Shown: positions 186 through 19,231 of the stretch, in pieces
Numbering within the stretch: position 1 is the stretch's first letter
How the letters are laid out: each line of letters begins with the position of its first letter
Source: a virus
UHGV virus genome: UHGV-0349822
Length of the DNA stretch: 37,380 nt
Reading direction: 5' to 3' (one strand)
Position numbers and translations under genes: made by a program
Notes under the pieces: model-generated
What the model saw: the letters and a program-made list of their open reading frames with translations, nothing else
Databases searched by the model: none
What the model was told of the DNA's origin: nothing

Positions 186-717
186 TATCGCGTCCTCAAC
201 AATGAATTTTGTGATGCGGTGCCTGGTGCCTCCAGGTGACGTTAACCAGTTAACAATTAACGCCGGATACAGAGAATCCACCCATAACACTGTTTTTGGT
301 TTTAACTGTTCCGCGTGCGCTCAGCCGCATTCACCACATCACAAAATTCACTTTAAAAAGGGCGGCAGAGCAGTCACGGAGTAAAACTGATACCGCCAAA
401 CGTCACCAGAAAATTGATAACAGAGGGCGTTGCAGCGGGGTTGTCACTTAAGCGTATGGTCAACCTGACAACCCGGTGTCCTCAATGGGGGAAGGAATAA
501 CCCCGCCATACTTACCGCCGCGCCATTTCGCGGATTGCCACAACCGGAAGCGCACGGTCGACGAAAATTTAACGACAGGCTATCTATGAACCAGCTACCT
601 CGCTGTGCGCTTTCGCGTTATGGTCTGACTTTTCAGGGAAATATCCTTTCAGTAAACTGTCAGTGCCGGATGCTCACCCGTGTCCGGCGCACGCACTCCA
701 CCTCACCTGTGAATAAA

Positions 718-5046: not shown

Positions 5047-5215
5047 TTTTGGTTCAACTAAATACAACGTCAGTTTTGAAGAATGGCATGAACTGTTAAT
5101 GGACTATGCAGAGTTACGTGGTGGCAGTGCTGCTGATGCTGAAGCATGGCGTGATGATTATGAAGCAGGAAAAACTCCGGTCGAAGCATATTGTGATGAG
5201 TGGGGCGATGAATGA
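5039..5215 (+). CDS. small acidic protein (58 aa)
   Basis: ATG 5039 overlaps the upstream stop; translation MADFGSTKYNVSFEEWHELLMDYAELRGGSAADAEAWRDDYEAGKTPVEAYCDEWGDE; stop TGA at 5213-5215 overlaps the next ATG. Below the ORF-track length cutoff. Confidence 0.4.
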   Translation: MADFGSTKYNVSFEEWHELLMDYAELRGGSAADAEAWRDDYEAGKTPVEAYCDEWGDE

Positions 5216-5479
5216 GCGAGGTTAATTATCAGGAAGGGCATGAAACGGCGGGGCAAGCAAAAACAGTGGCATGGCGATATCGCTACGTGAAAAAAAAGGC
5301 GTTACGGACTTTCAGGGGAAGTAGTGGTCTGGTGACTGGAAATATGTACCGAAAAAAGAGGATTGTAACGACAGGCCGAACTATGAAATTCAGGCCTTAT
5401 TCACTGCCCCGCCAGTCCCGGTTACATCAGAAGAACTGGTTAAAGCTGTGCACTTTTATGAACAACTAAAACGCGAAAA
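5212..5479 (+). pseudogene. early gene of unknown function, interrupted by IS2 (3' remainder at 6816-6867) and also split across two frames
   Basis: Two overlapping frames (5212 frame and the frame of ...SGDWKYVPKKEDCNDRPNYEIQALF...VHFYEQLKREN) run into the IS2 end at 5480. Removing IS2 plus one target-duplication copy restores ...LKRENPPASGNLITDSQIRQ*. Confidence 0.4.
5475..5479. repeat. IS2 target-site duplication (GAAAA), copy 1
   Basis: GAAAA directly abuts the IS2 terminus at 5480; identical pentamer at 6811-6815. Confidence 0.8.
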
Positions 5480-5490
5480 TGGATTTGCCC

Positions 5491-6396
5491 CTATATTTCC
5501 AGACACCTGTTATCACTTAACCCATTACTGGCCTGCTGCCGCAGATATTCCCGTGGCGAGCGATAACCCAGTGCACTATGCGGATGCCATTCGTTATAAT
5601 GCTCGAACGCCTCTGCAAGGTTCTTTGCTGCCGTTAACCCGTCTGGTTTAGGCATGATACTGATGTAGTCACGCTTTATCGTTTTCACGAAGCTCTCTGC
5701 TATGCCGTTACTCTCCGGACTCCGCACCGCCGTGTTCTTCGGTTCAAGCCCCAACATCCGGGCAAACTGCCGTGTTTCATTAGCCCGGTAGCATGAACCA
5801 TTATCCGTCAGCCACTCTACTGGAGACGCCGGAAGCTCGTTGCCGAAGCGGCGTTCCACCGCTCCCAGCATGACGTCCTGTACTGTTTCACTGTCGAAGC
5901 CGCCCGTAGTGACTGCCCAGTGCAGTGCCTCACGGTCACAGCAGTCCAGCGCGAACGTGACTCGCAGTTTTTCTCCGTTATCACAGCGGAACTCGAACCC
6001 GTCAGAGCACCATCGTTGATTGCTTTCTTTCACGGCCACTTTGCCAGTATGTGCCCGTTTCGATGGCGGTACAGCGGTTTTTCGCTCAAGCAACAGCGCA
6101 TTCTGTCGCATGATCCGGTAAACACGTTTGGCATTGATCGCAGGCATACCATCAAGTTCGGCCTGTCTGCGAAGCAGCGCCCATACCCGACGATAACCAT
6201 ACGTGGGCAGCTCTCCGATAACATGGTGTATACGGAGAAGCACATCCGTATCATCTGAGTGACGGCTGCGGCGACCATCTTTCCAGTCATCGGTTCGTCT
6301 GAGAATTACGTGCAACTGCGCACGCGACACCCGGAGACAACGGCTGACTAAGCTTACTCCCCATCCCCGGGCAATAAGGGCGCGTGCGCTATCCAC
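5491..6396 (-). CDS. insD: IS2 transposase OrfB (InsD), DDE domain
   Basis: 301-aa ORF in track; recognised as the IS2 OrfB sequence. Confidence 0.9.
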
Positions 6397-6719
6397 TTTT
6401 TTGCACGCCCGTATTCAACGGCTTCTTTAAGGAGTTCATTTTCCATCGTTTTTTTGCCGAGCAGGCGCTGGAGTTCTTTAATCTGCTTCATGGCAGCAGC
6501 AAGTTCAGAGGCAGGAACGACCTGCTCTCCTGCGGCCACAGCAGTAAGACTTCCCTCCTGGTATTGCTTGCGCCAGAGAAATAACTGGCTGGCTGCCACA
6601 CCGTGTTGCCGGGCAACAAGGGAGACCGTCATTCCCGGTTCAAAACTCTGCTGAACAATAGCGATCTTTTCCTGTGTAGTACGCCGTCTGCGTTTCTCCG
6701 GTCCTAAGACATCAATCAT
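6354..6719 (-). CDS. insC: IS2 OrfA (InsC), HTH DNA-binding transposase component
   Basis: Track ORF 6354-6764 trimmed to the [13 protein letters not shown]... start (121 aa); overlaps insD as in the IS2 OrfA/OrfB frameshift arrangement. Confidence 0.9.
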
Positions 6720-7214: not shown

Positions 7215-7473
7215 ATACAGCGAACGCCATTGGTTTAGTTGGATATTTACTGTGCCGGACAAAAACGGTTTGCGGGGAAATCTTAGTTAAGTAGAATGAC
7301 TGCGGGTGCTTGAGGCTATCTGTCTCAGGCATGAACACCAAAAGGCAGATAGAGAAAAGCCCCAGTTAACATTACGCGTCCTGCAAGACGCTTAACATTA
7401 ATCTGAGGCCATATCTATGCTCTACACACGTAGGTTAGCCTCTTACGTGCCGAAAGGCAAGGAGAAGCAGGCT

Positions 7474-7629
7474 ATGAAGCAGCAAAAGGCGATGCTAATC
7501 GCCCTGATCGTCATCTGTTTAACCGTCATAGTGACGGCACTGGTAACGAGGAAAGACCTCTGCGAGGTACGAATCCGAACCGGCCAGACGGAGGTCGCTG
7601 TCTTCACAGCTTACGAACCTGAGGAGTAA
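7474..7629 (+). CDS. hok: Hok/Gef-family membrane toxin (51 aa)
   Basis: MKQQKAMLIALIVICLTVIVTALVTRKDLCEVRIRTGQTEVAVFTAYEPEE shows the Hok signature (TM helix, conserved C...EVR...EVA.F.AYE); AAGGAGAAG Shine-Dalgarno; in-frame upstream ATG at 7417. Confidence 0.8.
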   Translation: MKQQKAMLIALIVICLTVIVTALVTRKDLCEVRIRTGQTEVAVFTAYEPEE

Positions 7630-9137: not shown

Positions 9138-9497
9138 ATGCTCATAGATTTGGTTTTACCTTACCCGCCGACGGTGAACACTTACTGGCGACGCCGTGGC
9201 AGCACATATTTTGTATCAAAAGTCGGTGAGCGTTATCGCCGTGATGTGGCGCTTATTGTTCGCCAGCAGCAACTGAAATTAAACCTGTCCGGAAGGCCGG
9301 CAATAGAAATTATTGCAGAGCCACCGGATAAGCGCCGTCGTGACCTGGACAATATCCTGAAGGCACCACTGGATGTACTGACGCATGCGGGGCTGCTCAT
9401 AGACGACGAGCAGTTTGATGAAATTAATATTGTGCGCGGTCAGCTTGTTCCTGGTGGGCGGTTGGGGATAAAAATCACAGAACTGGAGTATGCATGA
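9138..9497 (+). CDS. rusA: Holliday-junction resolvase RusA
   Basis: 119 aa; RusA-like motifs (YPPTVNTYW...RRRDLDN...GGRLGIKITE) comparable to E. coli RusA. Confidence 0.85.
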   Translation: MLIDLVLPYPPTVNTYWRRRGSTYFVSKVGERYRRDVALIVRQQQLKLNLSGRPAIEIIAEPPDKRRRDLDNILKAPLDVLTHAGLLIDDEQFDEINIVRGQLVPGGRLGIKITELEYA

Positions 9498-10183
9498 ATA
9501 ACCAGTATTTACAGTTTGTTCGTGAGCAACTCATGATTGCCACCGCCGATTTGAGTGGATCAACAAAAGGGCAGCTTGAGGCCTGGCAGGAGAATGCCAT
9601 GTTTGATACAGGGCGTTACAGGCGTAAAAAAATCCGGTACCGCGATGAAGTGACTGGAAAAATGATAACGCGGGATAATCCACCAATCCCGGGAAAGCAA
9701 TCGCTGGCGAAGGGGGCGTCAATTCCTCTCGTCAGTCCGGTTGAGTTTTTGACATCATCGTGGCGGCGGGCTGTTCTGTCTCTTGAAGAACATCATAAAG
9801 CCTGGTTGTTGTGGTGTTACAGCGGGAGTATTTGTTGGGAATATCAGATCGCGATAACGCAGTGGGTGTGGAATGAATTTAAAACCCGGTACGGCACCAG
9901 AAAAATTGCAGGGAAAACGCAGGAGCGCGTGAAGAAGTTGATCTGGCTGGCGGCACAGGATGTCAGAGGATGGATTACCGGGTGTGAGGTCTACCAGAGA
10001 CAGGAGCTTGCCAGACTGTGTGGAGTTAAGCCTGATAACTGGAGCCATAATTATGCGAACTACTGGCGTGAGATGTGCGATATTTTTAAGAGTCTCGATA
10101 GAGAATCTGTGATTTGCACCGTGAAAATAAGAGCGCAACAAAAAGCGATTTTTTCACGACGAGATATTGCAAAAGTCAATTAA
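9494..10183 (+). CDS. putative late-gene antiterminator (Q-like)
   Basis: 229 aa; ATGA overlap with rusA; followed by a promoter-like segment and a short hairpin with a T8 run (tR'-like), then the late-gene block. Position-based call. Confidence 0.45.
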   Translation: MNNQYLQFVREQLMIATADLSGSTKGQLEAWQENAMFDTGRYRRKKIRYRDEVTGKMITRDNPPIPGKQSLAKGASIPLVSPVEFLTSSWRRAVLSLEEHHKAWLLWCYSGSICWEYQIAITQWVWNEFKTRYGTRKIAGKTQERVKKLIWLAAQDVRGWITGCEVYQRQELARLCGVKPDNWSHNYANYWREMCDIFKSLDRESVICTVKIRAQQKAIFSRRDIAKVN

Positions 10184-10242: not shown

Positions 10243-10275
10243 AGAAAAAAAACTGCCGTCAGGCGGTTTTTTTTA
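10243..10275 (+). terminator. tR'-like intrinsic terminator downstream of the Q-like gene
   Basis: A8 run, short GC hairpin (CTGCC-GTCA-GGCGG), then T8 run; a candidate pR' (TTGCCG ... ) lies just upstream. Confidence 0.45.
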
Positions 10276-10396: not shown

Positions 10397-10594
10397 ATGC
10401 TAAAACAGCAGGATATGACAGAAACCGCCAGAGTGGTGTTTAATGAATTAAGCGTTACCGAACCGGCGACAGTCGGGGAGATAGCGCAGAATACTTACCT
10501 TTCACGCGAACGCTGCCAGTTAATACTGACTCAGCTGGTTATGGCGGGTCTGGCAGACTATCAGTTCGGTTGTTACAGACGCCTTCCGCAGTGA
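10397..10594 (+). CDS. small hypothetical protein (about 65 aa)
   Basis: In-frame ATG at 10397 after GGAAAAAGGAAAAAG within track ORF 10310-10594. Confidence 0.35.
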   Translation: MLKQQDMTETARVVFNELSVTEPATVGEIAQNTYLSRERCQLILTQLVMAGLADYQFGCYRRLPQ

Positions 10595-10621
10595 AGGCTT
10601 TTTTATTTGTGGTAAATGGGC

Positions 10622-10744: not shown

Positions 10745-11794
10745 ATGCTTAATACTGTAAAAATATCCAGTTGTGAGTTAATCAACGCCGACTGCCTGGA
10801 ATTTATCCGGTCGTTACCCGAAAATTCTGTTGACCTGATAGTCACGGACCCGCCGTACTTTAAAGTGAAGCCTGAGGGCTGGGATAACCAGTGGAAGGGC
10901 GACGATGATTACCTGAAGTGGCTGGACCAGTGTCTGGCGCAGTTCTGGCGGGTGCTGAAACCTGTCGGAAGTCTTTACCTGTTCTGTGGTCATCGCCTGG
11001 CATCTGATATCGAAATCATGATGCGTGAACGCTTCAGTGTGCTGAACCATATTATCTGGGCGAAGCCGTCCGGACGCTGGAACGGATGCAACAAGGAAAG
11101 CCTGCGGGCGTATTTCCCCGCCACAGAGCGCATTCTGTTCGCGGAACATTATCAGGGGCCGTATCGTCCGAAAGATGCCGGGTATGCGGCGAAGGGCAGT
11201 GCACTGAAACAGCATGTGATGGCCCCGCTGATTTCTTACTTTCGTGATGCGCGCGCGGCCCTGGGGATAACGGCAAAACAGATTGCAGATGCCACAGGAA
11301 AGAAAAACATGGTGTCGCACTGGTTCAGTGCCAGTCAGTGGCAGCTACCGAACGAAAGCGATTATCTGAAATTACAGTCGCTGTTTGCCCGGGTGGCAGA
11401 AGAGAAACATCAGCGCGGTGAACTGGAAAAGCCCCACCACCAGCTGGTGGATACGTATACGTCACTGAACCGGCAGTATGTGGAGCTGCAGAGTGAATAT
11501 AAGCATCTGCGGCGGTATTTTGGTGTGACGGCGCAGGTGCCGTACACGGATGTGTGGACACATAAACCGGTGCAGTTCTATCCCGGGAAACATCCGTGCG
11601 AAAAACCGGCAGAAATGCTGCAGCAGATAATCAGCGCAAGCAGTCGTCCGGGTGACCTGGTTGCAGATTTTTTTATGGGCTCAGGTTCAACGGTAAAAGC
11701 TGCACTGGCGCTCGGGCGTCGTGCGATTGGCGTTGAACTGGAGACCGGACGTTTTGAGCAGACAGTCAGGGAAGTTCAGGATTTAATCGTTTGA
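10745..11794 (+). CDS. DNA amino-methyltransferase (N6-adenine or N4-cytosine), beta-class motif order
   Basis: 349 aa; DPPY catalytic motif near the N-terminus (LIVTDPPYF) and AdoMet-binding FxGxG (DFFMGSGST) near the C-terminus. Confidence 0.8.
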   Translation: MLNTVKISSCELINADCLEFIRSLPENSVDLIVTDPPYFKVKPEGWDNQWKGDDDYLKWLDQCLAQFWRVLKPVGSLYLFCGHRLASDIEIMMRERFSVLNHIIWAKPSGRWNGCNKESLRAYFPATERILFAEHYQGPYRPKDAGYAAKGSALKQHVMAPLISYFRDARAALGITAKQIADATGKKNMVSHWFSASQWQLPNESDYLKLQSLFARVAEEKHQRGELEKPHHQLVDTYTSLNRQYVELQSEYKHLRRYFGVTAQVPYTDVWTHKPVQFYPGKHPCEKPAEMLQQIISASSRPGDLVADFFMGSGSTVKAALALGRRAIGVELETGRFEQTVREVQDLIV

Positions 11795-11843
11795 AACGGA
11801 TGAGATTGCAGAATTAATTACGCACCATTATTATTCTGCTTCC

Positions 11844-11919
11844 GGCCCTTTAGCTCAGTGGTGAGAGCGAGCGACTCATAATCGCCAGGTCGCTGGTTCA
11901 AATCCAGCAAGGGCCACCA
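11844..11919 (+). tRNA. tRNA with CAU anticodon (likely Ile2/ileZ-like, AUA-decoding after lysidine modification; could be Met)
   Basis: 76 nt; acceptor stem GGCCCTT/AAGGGCC, anticodon loop CUCAUAA, T-arm GGTTCAAATCC, 3' CCA. Confidence 0.8.
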
Positions 11920-12019
11920 TCACAAACCGCCATTAGCTTATCAGGAAGAGCAGACGACACGATAACAGGGTTGTTGGTGCGGGGGCGGGTCCCCGATGGC
12001 GGTCCATTATCGGTATTCA

Positions 12020-12096
12020 GCGTTGTTAGCTCAGCCGGACAGAGCAATTGCCTTCTAAGCAATCGGTTACTGGTTCGAATCCAGTACAGCGCGCCA
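12020..12096 (+). tRNA. tRNA-Arg (anticodon UCU, AGA-decoding)
   Basis: 77 nt; acceptor GCGTTGT/ACAGCGC, anticodon loop CUUCUAA, T-arm GGTTCGAATCC, 3' CCA. Confidence 0.8.
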
Positions 12097-12203
12097 TATT
12101 CATTCTTCCAGATTCCTTTCGGCAGAGCCTTATACTGAAATATACCTGGCTCAGGATATTGTTGAAAATATTATATGTTTGTCAAAAATAAAAGTTCTGT
12201 TAA

Positions 12204-12560
12204 GTGTTGATTGAGAGTTTGTTATACGGTCTAATGGTTTTTTCAGCATTAAATATTTATCATTCATATGGTGTGGGTAGAGTGAATATTGATGAGGCGT
12301 CGGGGTGTTTCATCCTTAGGCAGCGTATTGATATAGTCAATGCAGAACGAGCAAAGGCCTTCAGCCGTTTGACAGTTTTGTTCTGTACTCCTGATCGTCT
12401 TTCGGGAAGAGACGTTATTATTCTGAATAGTGATGCTATACAGAGGGTTTGCGATGAGTTCATGGTGGCTAATTCAGAATTATTTGCTCTTGTTCAGGAG
12501 TACAACAGAATAGCCAGGACCTGTGGTATGGATGAACTTCGGATTACTCATCTGGGGTAG
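12204..12560 (+). CDS. hypothetical cargo protein (118 aa) at the stx-equivalent locus
   Basis: ORF in track (GTG start; alternative ATG at 12233); AT-rich; same orientation as late genes. Confidence 0.35.
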   Translation: MLIESLLYGLMVFSALNIYHSYGVGRVNIDEASGCFILRQRIDIVNAERAKAFSRLTVLFCTPDRLSGRDVIILNSDAIQRVCDEFMVANSELFALVQEYNRIARTCGMDELRITHLG

Positions 12561-12951
12561 ATACATATCTGGATTATCACCGGTTACGGTAAAAAGTGAT
12601 TGCTTACTGTTTTTGTGAATGGCATTGCAGCAGCCGGATAATGTCAGTGCTGGCTGACGGTGTGCTGGTGGCGGGTGTGGTGGTTGCTGCTTTCCCGTTG
12701 CTGAAAAAGAAAACGCCAGACTGTTAGCCGGGTATCAGTTAGCGGGAGAAATTTTTAAATACTTCACAATTCAGGCGGTTGACTGTTGTCTGGTTTGCGG
12801 GGAGTTTGTTAAAAGAAACTGGCATGGTGAATCCCCCTGTGCGGAGGGGCAATCAGCGAGTAGGTATATGGGATAATCGCGGATTCAGGTGCTGGTACTG
12901 AATTCACCGGGAGGCACCCGGCACCATGCAATGGCACATAGCGCCACTCTC

Positions 12952-12980
12952 CAGCCCCTCTCCGGAGGGGCTGTTTATAT
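12952..12980 (+). terminator. intrinsic terminator
   Basis: 9-bp stem CAGCCCCTC/GAGGGGCTG with TCCG loop, followed by TTTATATTGATTTT. Confidence 0.45.
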
Positions 12981-13007
12981 TGATTTTGTCAGATGTGAGT
13001 AAACTCC

Positions 13008-13343
13008 TTATGGACTTTGTTGTTTTAGCCCATAAGGACATATTTGCAGAGTGCAACGGTTATTAAAGCATTCATTCAATACGTTATCTGTATTTGTAGG
13101 GCATTCCTGGCTGTTTTTGATTAAATTCCAGAATGTTTTATTGAATGGTACTACGTTGTAAATGGTTACAGGCAGCACTTTGTTATTGAGCATGATGCCT
13201 GTGTGAGTCAGTGTAAATATACTTTCAGGAGGTAAGAAAGCATCCGATTGATACCAGATTATTAATTTTATTTTACTCCATATGACTGAAAAAGATATTC
13301 CGCATGATGGCTGGATAACTGTATCAATCACAATCCACTTCAT
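13008..13343 (-). CDS. hypothetical cargo protein (111 aa), antisense to late transcription
   Basis: ORF in track; AT-rich; convergent with ORF 12204-12560. Confidence 0.3.
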
Positions 13344-17601: not shown

Positions 17602-18222
17602 ATGAAAGATCAAGATGTTAGGTTCGCGGTGCATCATAAGCTTTTGAAAGAATCGCATTTAGATCCAGACTGCCTTGTGGTCGATGAATTTTCCATATCC
17701 CTTGGCGCCAGTAGAGCAGACATTGCTGTAATAAATGGTGTTATACACGGGTACGAGCTCAAAAGTGAATATGACTCTTTGGAGCGTTTGCCTCTTCAAA
17801 TCAAGCATTATTCTTCTGTAATGGACAAGGTTACTCTTGTCGTAGCTGAGAAACATCTTGAGGGAGCATTAAAGTTAATCCCAGGTTGGTGGGGCGTTAA
17901 AACGGTTTCTGTTGGGCCAAAAGGCGCCATTCTTATAAAGCACATGCGTGGAGAAAAGCTTAATCGAAACCATGACACATTGATGCTCGCTCAATTGCTT
18001 TGGAAAGATGAATGTATCGACGTACTTGAACGATGGGGCTATTCCAAAGGAATCAAAAGCAAGCCCCGATTTGAGTTATGGAATATTATTGCGGAAAATA
18101 TTCCAATAGCGAATCTCAGGCTTGAAGTCAGAACAGCCTTAAAGAAACGCGTAGGCTGGAAAGTTAAGGCTTGGCAGGCTGAGTCTGCGCCAACCAATAA
18201 AGCTGTTTCACGACTAACGTAA
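17602..18222 (+). CDS. cargo protein A (206 aa) with PD-(D/E)xK-like motif (putative restriction-endonuclease-fold nuclease)
   Basis: AGGAGAAG Shine-Dalgarno; motif E29...D40-x11-E52-L-K54 (VVDEF...RADIAVINGVIHGYELK); AT-rich, with several ATA/AGA/AGG codons. Confidence 0.6.
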   Translation: MKDQDVRFAVHHKLLKESHLDPDCLVVDEFSISLGASRADIAVINGVIHGYELKSEYDSLERLPLQIKHYSSVMDKVTLVVAEKHLEGALKLIPGWWGVKTVSVGPKGAILIKHMRGEKLNRNHDTLMLAQLLWKDECIDVLERWGYSKGIKSKPRFELWNIIAENIPIANLRLEVRTALKKRVGWKVKAWQAESAPTNKAVSRLT

Positions 18223-19231
18223 TATGGTGCGTATGTGCAACTTTACGCCATTCTTTAGAGCCGCCAGATTTGTTAGCGCCTAATGATCTTTGGTAAATGT
18301 AATCATCCCCCCAACTAAATTTGGAACCAAAGACTTGATACTCTGGCGAACTAACAAGGGTAGTACATAAGTTTTTAGTTTGGCCCCATCCATTTCCTTT
18401 AACTGCGGTACCTTTTACAAAGATCCATGAGGTATCGTTCGAATATCTCACTGAGACATACTGAGACATGAAGCGTGGGTCTACGCTCGTAATGGTAGAG
18501 CTAGCGGTGGGATAATCACTAAAACTTGGCGTTCTTCCATTGCTAAAATTCTGTACTACGTGCATCCAAAGATCGTATTCATGGCGCGGAATATGATGAA
18601 CTTGATGTTGCGGTATCCCTGCCTGTGATGCTGGGTATGCGGTTGAAGATAAAATCAAGTTTCTCCACGGAGCTTGGCCTGATAATGTGTTGACCATGCT
18701 TAATGCTTGTTGTTTTAAACTATCAGTTGCGTTTTGAATATCTCCAAAATCAATGATTACATCAATTAAACTAGGATGAATATTTAAGTGGTTAACCAGA
18801 CTTGTGAATTGGTGCCATGTCTGGGGGGTGATAGATATAGCGAGCCCATTGATTAAGTTGCGTTGAACAGCATGTATATAGTTTGTTGAATATGCGGGAG
18901 AAACAACAGGGATAATTTCCTTACCATTTACTCTAGCATCTTGGATACACATATCTAGAGGATGATGGCGGCTCGAACCATGTTTATCTAAATATTTAAC
19001 ATCCAGCAAAACAGGACGATTGGCTTTCCAGGATGCCGCAAGGTTAATACCGAAGTCAGATAAGTAAGAACTCAAACTCTTCTTGTAGCATTCGTTTTCA
19101 TAATCCCAGTCTATGTCTGGAATGGTAATGATCGGAGTAAAACCAGAGAGCGTAGTTTGATCTAAAAGCATCAGAGATTCATATTCAGCAGGCTTCCATT
19201 TCAGCTGTGGATAATATTGATGTTGACTCAT
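18164..19231 (-). CDS. cargo protein B (355 aa), unknown function, convergent partner of protein A
   Basis: ORF in track with AAGGAG Shine-Dalgarno 7 nt upstream of ATG; AT-rich; 3' end overlaps protein A by 59 bp. Confidence 0.6.
   Translation of the reverse strand: MSQHQYYPQLKWKPAEYESLMLLDQTTLSGFTPIITIPDIDWDYENECYKKSLSSYLSDFGINLAASWKANRPVLLDVKYLDKHGSSRHHPLDMCIQDARVNGKEIIPVVSPAYSTNYIHAVQRNLINGLAISITPQTWHQFTSLVNHLNIHPSLIDVIIDFGDIQNATDSLKQQALSMVNTLSGQAPWRNLILSSTAYPASQAGIPQHQVHHIPRHEYDLWMHVVQNFSNGRTPSFSDYPTASSTITSVDPRFMSQYVSVRYSNDTSWIFVKGTAVKGNGWGQTKNLCTTLVSSPEYQVFGSKFSWGDDYIYQRSLGANKSGGSKEWRKVAHTHHITLVVKQLYWLAQTQPAKP

What the first reader, a model, noticed from the sequence alone, without database searches (positions are those of the whole stretch)
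11844..12096. Phage tRNAs decode the rare codons that are enriched in the AT-rich cargo genes
The two tRNAs have CAU (Ile2-type if lysidine-modified, reading AUA) and UCU (Arg, reading AGA) anticodons. Cargo gene A (17602-18222) contains at least five ATA, two AGA and two AGG codons in 206 codons, which are rare in E. coli core genes. In Stx phages the ileZ-argN-argO trio is known to sit at this position; here only two tRNAs are recognisable and the 100-bp spacer between them (11920-12019) may be a decayed third one.
Basis: partly seen in the sequence, partly recalled or inferred. Interest (0 to 1): 0.4.

Follow-up and report, generated by a model that had tools for sequence, protein, structure and literature searches.

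The report
Prophage rare-codon tRNAs with decayed third
This is the well-known ileZ–argN–argO tRNA block of Shiga-toxin-type lambdoid prophages, here in a toxin-free E. coli prophage with the middle tRNA degenerated; its codons are over-used by the whole prophage rather than by the "cargo" genes in particular, so the finding is real but ordinary.

Summary
The window has a tRNA(CAU) at 11844-11919 and a tRNA-Arg(UCU) at 12020-12096. The 100-bp spacer is a degenerate copy of argN (UCG), the third tRNA of Stx2 phages. The CAU tRNA is Ile2-type: PGAP calls it tRNA-Ile, and it is 89.5% identical to ileX versus 67.5% to metT. The same two-tRNA form occurs in phiP27, mEp460 and 34 of 124 sampled loci. 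The block occurs in 3,061 of 5,426 complete E. coli genomes.

Gene A's codon counts are exact, and cargo is ATA-rich (22.4 vs 8.4 per 1000 in the rest of the prophage). But AT-rich non-cargo genes are equally rich, and the cargo effect vanishes once gene GC is controlled (p=0.21). Cargo holds only 16 of 93 ATA and 7 of 58 AGA codons. Two of the four cargo genes are antisense. Gene A's module accompanies the tRNA block in 1 of 20 loci, the window itself. The whole prophage over-uses ATA, AGA and AGG 3.7- to 6.6-fold relative to host core genes, which fits ordinary codon supplementation.

Additional points: a conserved promoter-like TTGNNN-17-TATTAT precedes ileZ, and the terminator after argO is missing in this variant. 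Already known; low interest.

The parts
9494..10183 (+). Late antiterminator Q gene (context: the tRNAs lie downstream of it on the same strand)
   Evidence: Pfam Phage_antiter_Q, E=4.5e-83; PGAP annotation
10255..10267 (+). Terminator-like hairpin followed by T8, 72 nt after the Q stop codon (candidate tR'). A second one lies at 10581-10598.
   Evidence: Consensus scan and sequence read. Its role as tR' is inferred from lambdoid architecture, not shown.
10745..11794 (+). DNA methyltransferase gene immediately upstream of the tRNA block, as in many Stx2 phages
   Evidence: Pfam N6_N4_Mtase, E=2.7e-44; same order in AP012536 and phiP27; present upstream in 61 of 105 sampled loci
11806..11834 (+). 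Promoter-like element belonging to the tRNA module: -35 TTGCAG (11806-11811), 17-nt spacer, -10 TATTAT (11829-11834), then a GC-rich 9-nt segment before ileZ +1
   Evidence: TATTAT is present in all 122 loci (113 at -15..-10, 9 shifted by 1 nt). A TTG-type -35 sits about 17 nt upstream in at least 5 unrelated upstream contexts, while the spacer sequence varies. Homology in genomes lacking the methylase starts at 11805. The consensus scan did not report it because the -35 matches only 3 of 6. Function is inferred.
11844..11919 (+). tRNA-Ile2 (anticodon CAU, presumably lysidine-modified, reading AUA); homologue of phage ileZ and chromosomal ileX
   Evidence: ARAGORN; Rfam 72.5 bits; PGAP tRNA-Ile; 89.5% identity to ileX versus 67.5% to metT; only 4-5 distinct alleles among 31 and 85 loci
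11927..12006 (+). Degenerate argN (pseudo-tRNA, 80 nt). Acceptor stem, D arm, T stem and CCA are retained. The anticodon arm is replaced (11953-11979) by a 7-bp hairpin with a 3-nt loop. The T loop is destroyed (GCGGGTC instead of TTCGAGT).
   Evidence: Alignments to argN, to phiP27 and to a PGAP 'tRNA-OTHER'; not called by ARAGORN, Rfam or PGAP; fold z-score -1.0; the replaced segment is unique in the window
12020..12096 (+). tRNA-Arg (anticodon UCU, reading AGA and weakly AGG); homologue of phage argO
   Evidence: ARAGORN; Rfam 68 bits; PGAP tRNA-Arg; 2 differences from argO of Stx2a_1447 (U48, and G69 giving a U4.G69 pair)

Best explanation
Window 11806-12096 is the conserved tRNA module of Stx-type lambdoid prophages (ileZ-argN-argO), here in a toxin-free, Qin/Rac-like and probably defective E. 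coli prophage. It lies in the late region, after Q, two terminator-like hairpins and a DNA methylase, and just before the slot that holds stx in Stx phages. In this window that slot holds DUF3927, the STnc100 sRNA and iraM. Two genes look functional. The first is a tRNA-Ile2 whose CAU anticodon would be converted by host TilS to lysidine-AU and so read AUA. The second is a tRNA-Arg(UCU) that reads AGA and, less well, AGG. The middle gene, argN (UCG), is a pseudogene of the same lineage as in phage phiP27. The likely mechanism (inferred, not shown) is that the block is transcribed from its own conserved sigma-70-like promoter, and also by Q-antiterminated read-through from the late promoter. 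Host RNases process the transcript. The products add to the host's scarce ileX/ileY and argU tRNA pools. This eases translation of ATA, AGA and AGG codons, which the whole prophage uses 3.7- to 6.6-fold more often than host core genes. The benefit is general to the AT-richer phage genes and is not tailored to the cargo genes at 17602-19231.
For: Identity: two strong tRNAs; PGAP tRNA-Ile and tRNA-Arg in a record matching window 11700-12200 at 100%; 89.5% to ileX; C4-G69, C5-G68, A73, C29-G41, A37 and A38 kept. Module homology: 289 phage records, mostly Stx2-converting; same order as in AP012536, annotated ileZ/argN/argO, and in phiP27, annotated ileZ/argO. Ubiquity: (3,061 of 5,426 complete E. 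coli genomes, up to 13 copies per genome). Pseudo-argN: which together show a decay series from intact argN, to a variant with only the anticodon arm replaced that PGAP still calls 'tRNA-OTHER', to phiP27, to the window type. Constraint on the flanking tRNAs: (few alleles, and paired T-stem changes in argO) while the flanks are highly diverse. Codon demand. Prophage versus host core is ATA 9.5 vs 2.6, AGA 5.9 vs 1.2 and AGG 4.5 vs 0.7 per 1000, all p<1e-9. Even the structural genes are 2.2- to 5.6-fold enriched. Promoter. In Stx phages the adjacent co-transcribed stxA has 72-81 cognate codons per 1000. PMC7366253 reports three tRNAs in Stx2a/c/d phages and two in Stx2e phages. PMC7946995 and PMC10264068 describe codon compensation as the standard reading.
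Against: No expression, processing, aminoacylation or lysidine data exist for this locus. The promoter is only a conserved consensus-like pair, and the generic scan missed it. The phage ileZ has A27/C43 where ileX has G27.U43; the effect on TilS or IleRS is unknown. The most highly expressed structural genes avoid these codons altogether (major capsid protein: 0 ATA, AGA or AGG in 342 codons), so the need may be modest. The prophage still uses CGG heavily (14.3 vs 5.4 per 1000 in host) and CGA (4.7 vs 3.6) although argN (UCG) is dead, so dependence on phage tRNAs is not strict.
Confidence: 0.8

Rival explanations
1. One reading: the tRNAs are kept specifically to decode rare codons concentrated in the AT-rich cargo (moron) genes of this prophage, such as gene A at 17602-18222.
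For: Cargo genes are the richest class for ATA (22.4 per 1000; OR 4.0 vs structural genes, p=4e-5; OR 2.7 vs the rest of the prophage, p=0.001) and have AGA at 9.8 per 1000. iraM, next to the tRNAs, has 6 ATA in 111 codons. In Stx phages the adjacent cargo gene stxA has 72-81 cognate codons per 1000. A module-intrinsic promoter could supply tRNAs in the lysogen, when cargo is expressed.
Against: The enrichment is explained by base composition. AT-rich non-cargo genes have 20.8 ATA, 9.6 AGA and 8.0 AGG per 1000, and the cargo term is non-significant after a GC covariate (logOR -0.33 +/- 0.26, p=0.21). AGA is not significant against the rest of the prophage, and AGG is lower in cargo. Cargo holds only 17% of ATA, 12% of AGA and 5% of AGG codons. 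iraM and the beta-family gene are antisense to the tRNAs. Gene A's module co-occurs with the tRNA block in 1 of 20 loci with enough downstream sequence, and that one is the window itself. The block occurs in 56% of complete E. coli genomes with many different neighbours.
Confidence: 0.1
2. Anti-defence reading: the phage tRNAs replace host tRNAs that are cleaved by anticodon nucleases during infection (colicin D on tRNA-Arg, PrrC/VapC-type enzymes, OLD-type nucleases).
For: This is a general hypothesis with experimental support in other phages (PMC10264068; PMC12445682). Colicin D is listed there among the tRNA-depleting enzymes, and from general knowledge it targets tRNA-Arg. The anticodon stems of the phage copies differ from those of ileX and argU.
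Against: The anticodon loops are identical to the host's: CTCATAA in ileZ and ileX, CTTCTAA in argO and argU. So there are none of the loop mutations that mark evasion in PMC10264068. Neither anticodon stem carries the paired CNG motif cut by P2 OLD (compared with the sequences). Both anticodons are exactly those of the rarest host tRNAs whose codons the phage over-uses, as codon compensation predicts.
Confidence: 0.08
3. The block has no present function. It is a relic of an ancient capture of chromosomal tRNA genes that persists as a conserved linker where lambdoid phages recombine.
For: The flanks change abruptly at both edges of the block (nucleotide diversity 0.17-0.38 in the flanks versus 0.002-0.006 in ileZ and 0.046-0.056 in argO). 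PMC7366253 suggests the tRNAs mark a region captured by an ancestral phage. One of the three genes has decayed repeatedly.
Against: ileZ and argO are far more conserved than argN or the flanks, and argO shows paired (compensatory) T-stem changes. Both score as strong canonical tRNAs. The promoter hexamers are conserved while the spacer varies. argO is only distantly related to E. coli argU, so it is not a recent capture from E. coli.
Confidence: 0.04

Closest known systems
ileZ-argN-argO tRNA cluster of Stx2-converting lambdoid phages (e.g. Stx2a_1447, AP012536; from memory also the 933W/Sp5 type)
   Same: Same genes in the same order and position (Q ... DNA methylase - tRNAs - moron slot - nanS-like esterase - lysis genes). 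About 90% nucleotide identity over window 11500-12111. ileZ is identical and argO differs at 2 positions.
   Different: argN (UCG) is a pseudogene here. No stx genes follow; DUF3927, STnc100 and iraM occupy that slot. The hairpin plus T-run terminator that follows argO in 75 of 88 intact-trio loci is absent.
Two-tRNA block (ileZ, argO) of Stx2e phage phiP27 (NC_003356) and non-Stx phage mEp460 (LR597641)
   Same: The same replaced anticodon arm in the middle element and the same two callable tRNAs. mEp460 is 98% identical to window 11805-12500. PMC7366253 notes that all the Stx2e phages it analysed carry only Met(CAU)+Arg tRNAs.
   Different: phiP27 keeps a normal T loop with a mismatched T stem, whereas the window has an intact T stem and a destroyed T loop. 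These are independent further lesions on the same variant. phiP27 carries stx2e downstream.
Chromosomal minor tRNAs ileX/ileY (tRNA-Ile2, k2CAU) and argU (tRNA-Arg UCU) of E. coli
   Same: The same anticodons and anticodon loops. ileZ is 89.5% identical to ileX and has the acceptor-stem pairs C4-G69 and C5-G68, which (from memory of the TilS literature) distinguish tRNA-Ile2 from tRNA-Met.
   Different: A27/C43 in ileZ instead of G27.U43 in ileX. argO differs from argU throughout its stems. The phage genes are carried on a prophage and are present in addition to the chromosomal copies.
Codon-compensation model for phage-encoded tRNAs (Bailly-Bechet et al. 2007, as summarised in PMC7946995 and PMC10264068)
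   Same: The tRNAs correspond to codons that the phage uses more than the host does, a side effect of lower GC content.
   Different: This is a temperate and here probably defective prophage with only two working tRNAs, and nothing has been tested experimentally.

Membership tests
Canonical tRNA (Rfam RF00005) | Covariance-model score above the gathering threshold (29 bits) and a cloverleaf called by a tRNA finder | tested here: met
   11844-11919 scores 72.5 bits and 12020-12096 scores 68 bits; ARAGORN calls both
Canonical tRNA (Rfam RF00005), middle element 11927-12006 | The same criteria applied to the spacer | tested here: not met
   No tRNA hit even at E<=10 on 341 nt. ARAGORN and PGAP do not call it. 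There is no 7-nt anticodon loop and the T loop lacks TTC.
tRNA-Ile2 (lysidine, ileX type) | CAU anticodon together with an isotype call of Ile rather than Met | tested here: met
   PGAP annotates tRNA-Ile in a record matching window 11700-12200 at 100% and in all other listed genomes. Identity is 89.5% to ileX versus 67.5% to metT/U and 59.7% to metZ.
tRNA-Ile2 (lysidine, ileX type) | Acceptor-stem pairs C4-G69 and C5-G68 (TilS determinants, recalled from the literature) and IleRS elements A73, C29-G41, A37, A38 | tested here: met
   All are present in the alignment with ileX, while metT has U4-A69 and A5-U68.
tRNA-Ile2 (lysidine, ileX type) | G27.U43 wobble pair at the top of the anticodon stem, as in ileX | tested here: not met
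   The window and all phage copies have A27/C43. Whether this matters for TilS is unknown, so it lowers certainty only slightly.
tRNA-Ile2 (lysidine, ileX type) | C34 actually modified to lysidine and the tRNA charged with Ile | not testable with these tools
   Needs mass spectrometry of the tRNA or aminoacylation assays
tRNA-Arg (UCU, argU/argO type) | UCU anticodon with ArgRS elements A20, C35 and G/A73 (recalled from the literature) | tested here: met
   Sequence read: D loop AGCCGGACA (A20), anticodon TCT, G73 before CCA. PGAP annotates tRNA-Arg.
ileZ-argN-argO module of Stx-type lambdoid phages | Homologous sequence located downstream of Q (often with a methylase between) and upstream of the stx/moron slot and the lysis genes | tested here: met
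   About 90% identity to Stx2 phages across the block, with the same gene order
ileZ-argN-argO module of Stx-type lambdoid phages | Three intact tRNA genes including argN (UCG) | tested here: not met
   The middle gene is degenerate. The window belongs to the two-tRNA variant (34 of 124 sampled loci, including phiP27 and mEp460).
ileZ-argN-argO module of Stx-type lambdoid phages | Shiga toxin genes immediately downstream | tested here: not met
   No Stx homologue in the window. DUF3927, STnc100 and iraM occupy the slot. Only 11 of 84 sampled loci with at least 1.5 kb downstream have stx, so stx is not a defining feature of the module.
Codon-compensating phage tRNAs | Cognate codons over-represented in phage genes relative to host genes | tested here: met
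   ATA 3.7-fold, AGA 5.0-fold and AGG 6.6-fold (odds ratios) versus 50 host core genes, all p<1e-9
Anticodon-nuclease-evading phage tRNAs | Anticodon-loop or stem changes relative to the host tRNA that block cleavage | tested here: not met
   The loops are identical to ileX and argU, and there is no paired CNG motif

The most novel reading that the evidence does not exclude
The middle element is not junk but a long-lived tRNA-like RNA. An argN-derived cloverleaf whose anticodon arm has been replaced by a closed hairpin is co-transcribed and processed with ileZ and argO. It might act as something other than a decoder, for example as a decoy or competitor for tRNA-binding enzymes or nucleases, or as a processing or spacing element. 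Supporting this reading: the same derived 'AGACGACA' insertion is shared with a stand-alone 81-nt tRNA-like element between yahL and yahM, a locus present in about 95% of E. coli chromosomes. The variant also makes up about a quarter of sampled phage tRNA blocks and retains acceptor stem, D arm, T stem and CCA.
Probability: 0.06. Interest if true: 0.5.

Novelty: already known. Interest (0 to 1): 0.12.

Why it matters
It matters little beyond correct annotation. It shows that the "Stx-phage" tRNA block is a general, very common lambdoid module: it occurs in 56% of complete E. coli genomes and is mostly not next to stx. The CAU gene should be read as tRNA-Ile2, not tRNA-Met, which is how ARAGORN and many phage records label it. 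The two-tRNA form carries a recognisable argN pseudogene. It is also a caution for codon-based arguments, because rare-codon enrichment in AT-rich morons is what base composition alone predicts, so it cannot by itself link a tRNA to a cargo gene. The conserved promoter-like element, and the terminator present in the three-tRNA form, suggest the block is an autonomous transcription unit. That would be relevant to whether these tRNAs are available in lysogens.

Tried and rejected
1. Literature: 'ileZ' does not occur anywhere in the searchable library. The 933W paper, the phiP27 paper and the Bailly-Bechet paper are not held. Statements about them therefore rest on GenBank annotations and on papers that cite them.

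2. Rfam at a permissive threshold on 11800-12140 gave only chance-level extra hits (an antisense Plastid-ycf2 match, YrlA at E=0.98); I rejected these.

3. Polymorphism as a test of constraint on the pseudo-argN was inconclusive. The window-type haplotype is young (19 of 31 middle elements identical), and one outlier locus inflated the argO diversity figure. Its few variants are poly-G slippage, a G-to-C change that breaks a hairpin pair, and a G-to-A change that breaks an acceptor pair. There is no covariation.

4. I searched for a source of the replaced 27-nt segment. There is no second copy in the window. The only relative found is the yahL-yahM relic, whose flanks contain no ileZ or argO remnants.

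5. The P2-OLD and anticodon-nuclease evasion ideas were checked against the sequences and are not supported.

6. The second host chunk I fetched for a baseline turned out to be another prophage, so only its first 10.8 kb was used.

Full report
OBSERVATION. ARAGORN finds exactly two tRNA genes in the window: anticodon CAT at 11844-11919 and TCT at 12020-12096, both on the + strand. The Rfam tRNA model scores them 72.5 and 68 bits against a threshold of 29. Nothing in the 100-bp spacer reaches even E<=10 for the tRNA model.

CONTEXT. The window matches the chromosome of E. coli strain ST648 (NZ_CP008697.1) at 99.98% identity, apart from one deletion. PGAP annotation and Pfam show a lambdoid (Qin/Rac-like) prophage. 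In order it contains:
- dicB, DicF and racR on the left, then an IS3 insertion and hokD/sok
- DUF968, rusA and Q (9494-10183)
- a small ORF and a DNA methyltransferase (10745-11794)
- the two tRNAs
- DUF3927 (12596-12727), the STnc100 sRNA (12793-12982) and iraM (13008-13343, minus strand)
- a SASA/NanS-like esterase, then holin, lysozyme and Rz
- two AT-rich genes (17602-18222 on the plus strand, 18164-19231 on the minus strand)
- terminase, head and tail genes

Two terminator-like hairpins with T-runs follow Q, at 10255-10267 and 10581-10598. The tRNAs therefore sit inside the Q-dependent late region. Treating those hairpins as tR' is an inference from lambdoid architecture.

WHAT THE BLOCK IS. 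Megablast of 11500-12500 hits 289 phage records, mostly Stx2-converting phages. These align at about 90% identity over 11500-12111. In AP012536 the features under the match are annotated DNA methylase, ileZ, argN, argO and then stx2A/B. In phiP27 they are annotated DNA methyltransferase, ileZ, argO and then stx2e. ARAGORN gives CAT-TCG-TCT for the Stx2a phage and CAT-TCT for phiP27 and mEp460. The block occurs in 3,061 of 5,426 complete E. coli genomes, with up to 13 copies per genome. It is a common lambdoid module, not a peculiarity of toxin phages. PMC7366253 reports three tRNAs in Stx2a/c/d phages and two (Met-anticodon plus Arg) in all the Stx2e phages it analysed.

ILE2 OR MET? ARAGORN labels the CAT gene 'Met' from the anticodon alone. 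PGAP annotates it tRNA-Ile, both in a record matching window 11700-12200 at 100% and in every other listed genome. I verified my recalled ileX sequence: it matches at 100% and is annotated tRNA-Ile, with a match in 5,424 of 5,426 genomes. I also fetched metT, metU and metZ from MG1655. The window gene is 89.5% identical to ileX, 67.5% to elongator Met and 59.7% to initiator Met. It keeps C4-G69 and C5-G68, where metT has U4-A69 and A5-U68, and it keeps A73, C29-G41, A37 and A38. From memory of the TilS/IleRS literature, these are the Ile2 determinants. One difference is A27/C43 instead of G27.U43. The UCU gene differs from argO of Stx2a_1447 at two positions (U48, and G69 giving a U4.G69 pair), and it has A20, C35 and G73.

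THE SPACER. The alignment shows that 11927-12006 is homologous to argN:
- Retained: acceptor stem (CCGCCAT/ATGGCGG), D arm, T stem, discriminator and CCA.
- Replaced: the anticodon arm and variable region become GACGACACGATAACAGGGTTGTTGGTG (11953-11979). This segment is 4 nt longer overall and folds into a 7-bp hairpin with a 3-nt loop (z = -1.0, no better than shuffles).
- Destroyed: the T loop, which reads GCGGGTC instead of TTCGAGT.

I scanned IMG/VR for ileZ-3'...argO-5' and classified 124 loci. Eighty have the intact trio and 34 have this same replaced arm, which ARAGORN never calls. A few have other anticodons in the middle gene (TTT, TCT). In strain 2011C-4315 the same replaced arm sits on intact D and T arms, and PGAP calls it an 82-nt 'tRNA-OTHER'. 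phiP27 adds a T-stem mismatch, and the window type adds a broken T loop and a G.U pair in the D stem. Intact argN is also the most polymorphic of the three genes: 46 distinct middle sequences among 85 loci, versus 5 for ileZ and 20 for argO.

CODON TEST. I mapped 45 genes from the PGAP table into window coordinates. Gene A has exactly 5 ATA, 2 AGA and 2 AGG in 206 codons.

Frequencies per 1000 codons:
| Gene set | ATA | AGA | AGG |
|---|---|---|---|
| Host core (50 genes, 16,095 codons) | 2.6 | 1.2 | 0.7 |
| Whole prophage | 9.5 | 5.9 | 4.5 |
| Cargo (DUF3927, iraM, gene A, beta-family gene) | 22.4 | 9.8 | 2.8 |
| Early/regulatory | 12.8 | 11.0 | 7.3 |
| Lysis/esterase | 12.5 | 5.4 | 3.6 |
| Structural | 5.7 | 3.8 | 3.8 |

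- Cargo versus the rest of the prophage: ATA OR 2.7 (p=0.001), AGA OR 1.8 (p=0.19), AGG OR 0.6.
- Rare-codon frequency tracks gene GC (Spearman -0.58, p=3e-5).
- Non-cargo genes with GC below 0.46 have 20.8 ATA, 9.6 AGA and 8.0 AGG per 1000.
- A cargo term adds nothing to a binomial model that includes GC (logOR -0.33 +/- 0.26, LRT p=0.21).
- Cargo holds 16 of 93 ATA, 7 of 58 AGA and 2 of 44 AGG codons.
- Co-oriented genes downstream of Q hold 57 ATA, 31 AGA and 28 AGG, of which gene A contributes 5, 2 and 2.
- iraM and the beta-family gene are antisense to the tRNAs.
- The whole prophage is enriched over host core genes 3.7- to 6.6-fold (all p<1e-9), and even the structural genes are enriched 2.2- to 5.6-fold.
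- The major capsid gene has none of these codons.

LINKAGE TEST. tblastn of window proteins against the 124 oriented loci shows that gene A and its partner are present in 1 of 20 loci with at least 7.5 kb downstream of argO, and that one is the window itself. The window-type block is instead linked to the segment right next to it. Among loci with at least 3.5 kb downstream, DUF3927 is present in 17 of 18 and iraM in 13 of 18. Stx2A follows the block in only 11 of 84 loci with at least 1.5 kb downstream. Where stx is present the classical argument does hold: stx2A has 15 ATA, 6 AGA and 2 AGG in 319 codons (72 per 1000), and stx2eA reaches 81 per 1000.

EXPRESSION ANATOMY (inferred). Anchoring 122 loci at ileZ +1 shows TATTAT at -15..-10 in 113 loci and shifted by one base in the other 9. 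A TTG-type hexamer (TTGCAG, TTGCGG, TTGAAG, TTGCAA or TTGATT) lies about 17 nt upstream. This holds in at least five unrelated upstream contexts, and the spacer sequence differs between them. In genomes without the methylase, homology begins at 11805, exactly at the -35 element. In the window this is TTGCAG at 11806-11811 and TATTAT at 11829-11834, followed by a GC-rich 9-nt segment before the mature 5' end. The generic scan missed it because the -35 matches only 3 of 6. Downstream of argO, 75 of 88 intact-trio loci have a stable hairpin followed by a T-run, but only 6 of 32 window-type loci do, and the window has none. The ancestral module thus looks like an autonomous promoter-tRNAs-terminator unit embedded in the late operon. 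In the window variant, transcription may run on towards DUF3927 and STnc100.

RIVALS. The anti-defence reading (PMC10264068, PMC12445682) finds no support. The anticodon loops are identical to those of ileX and argU, and the stems lack the paired CNG motif cut by P2 OLD. A pure relic or recombination-linker reading is contradicted by the strong conservation of ileZ and argO against very diverse flanks and by paired T-stem changes in argO.

SIDE FINDING. An element about 80% identical to the pseudo-argN lies alone between yahL and yahM in K-12, overlapping the yahM start. The locus is present in 5,171 of 5,426 genomes, and no tRNA is annotated there. The element shares the derived 'AGACGACA' insertion with the window variant but has a neat 5-bp stem and 7-nt loop (CAGGATT). 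ARAGORN forces it into 'tRNA-Ser(GGA)', while Rfam finds nothing. Homology does not extend into the flanks. So the replaced-arm lineage is old. This leaves a small chance that it is a functional tRNA-like RNA rather than junk.

VERDICT. The thing itself is the already-known lambdoid ileZ-(argN)-argO module in its two-tRNA form. Novelty: already known. Interest: low.

Noticed in passing
window ~20447 (corresponds to L004 20447-21557): Relative to strain ST648, the window lacks 1,111 bp inside the large terminase gene. The length is not a multiple of 3, so the gene is truncated and frameshifted. The prophage copy in the window is therefore probably unable to package DNA (the ORFs compared with the gene table).
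   Followed up: partly
window 17602-18222 (+) and 18164-19231 (-): The 'cargo' pair between Rz and the small terminase gene is convergent and overlaps by 59 bp. Gene A matches the PADLOC candidate model 'cll' (E=4e-31; PGAP 'sce7726 family'). Its partner is a Pfam Beta_protein (E=2e-55) that also matches PADLOC PD-Lambda-2_C (E=3e-32) and 'beta'. This is probably an anti-phage defence moron.
   Followed up: partly
L131 1500-1580 (E. coli K-12, between yahL and yahM): A stand-alone 81-nt argN-like tRNA-like element in a locus present in about 95% of E. coli chromosomes, not annotated as a tRNA and overlapping the yahM start codon region. It shares the 'AGACGACA' insertion with the window's pseudo-argN. 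ARAGORN calls it tRNA-Ser(GGA), and Rfam does not call it.
   Followed up: partly
window 12097-12180; L001 3597-3640: Intact-trio loci usually have a hairpin plus T-run terminator right after argO (75 of 88), directly upstream of stx in Stx2 phages. Window-type loci mostly lack it (6 of 32 have it), and the window has none.
   Followed up: partly
L013, L052, L025 (IMG/VR loci); L130 526-607: The middle tRNA gene of the block varies in anticodon between phages: TTT on an Arg-like body in L013 and L052, TCG changed to TCT in L025, and a PGAP 'tRNA-OTHER' in strain 2011C-4315. PMC7366253 also mentions a Pro tRNA in phage TL-2011c.
   Followed up: partly
window 12793-12982 (+), 7304-7479 (+), 360-411 (-): Three Rfam sRNA hits: STnc100 (132 bits) in the stx-equivalent slot next to iraM, sok antitoxin RNA next to hokD, and DicF next to dicB.
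   Followed up: no
window 5491-6719 (-): An IS3-family transposase is inserted in the early region next to a frameshifted pseudogene (5212-5480). This is another sign that the prophage is decaying.
   Followed up: no
window 12068 and 12089 (argO positions 48 and 69): The window's argO allele has U48 where almost all other loci have C48 (only 2 of 31 window-type loci share U48). It also has G69, giving a U4.G69 pair where Stx phages have U4-A69. The effect on function is unknown.
   Followed up: no
L129 10996-50000 (strain ST648 chromosome 3,510,996-3,550,000): The second host chunk fetched for the baseline is an unrelated prophage that carries its own tRNA-Arg gene (L129 35579-35655).
   Followed up: no
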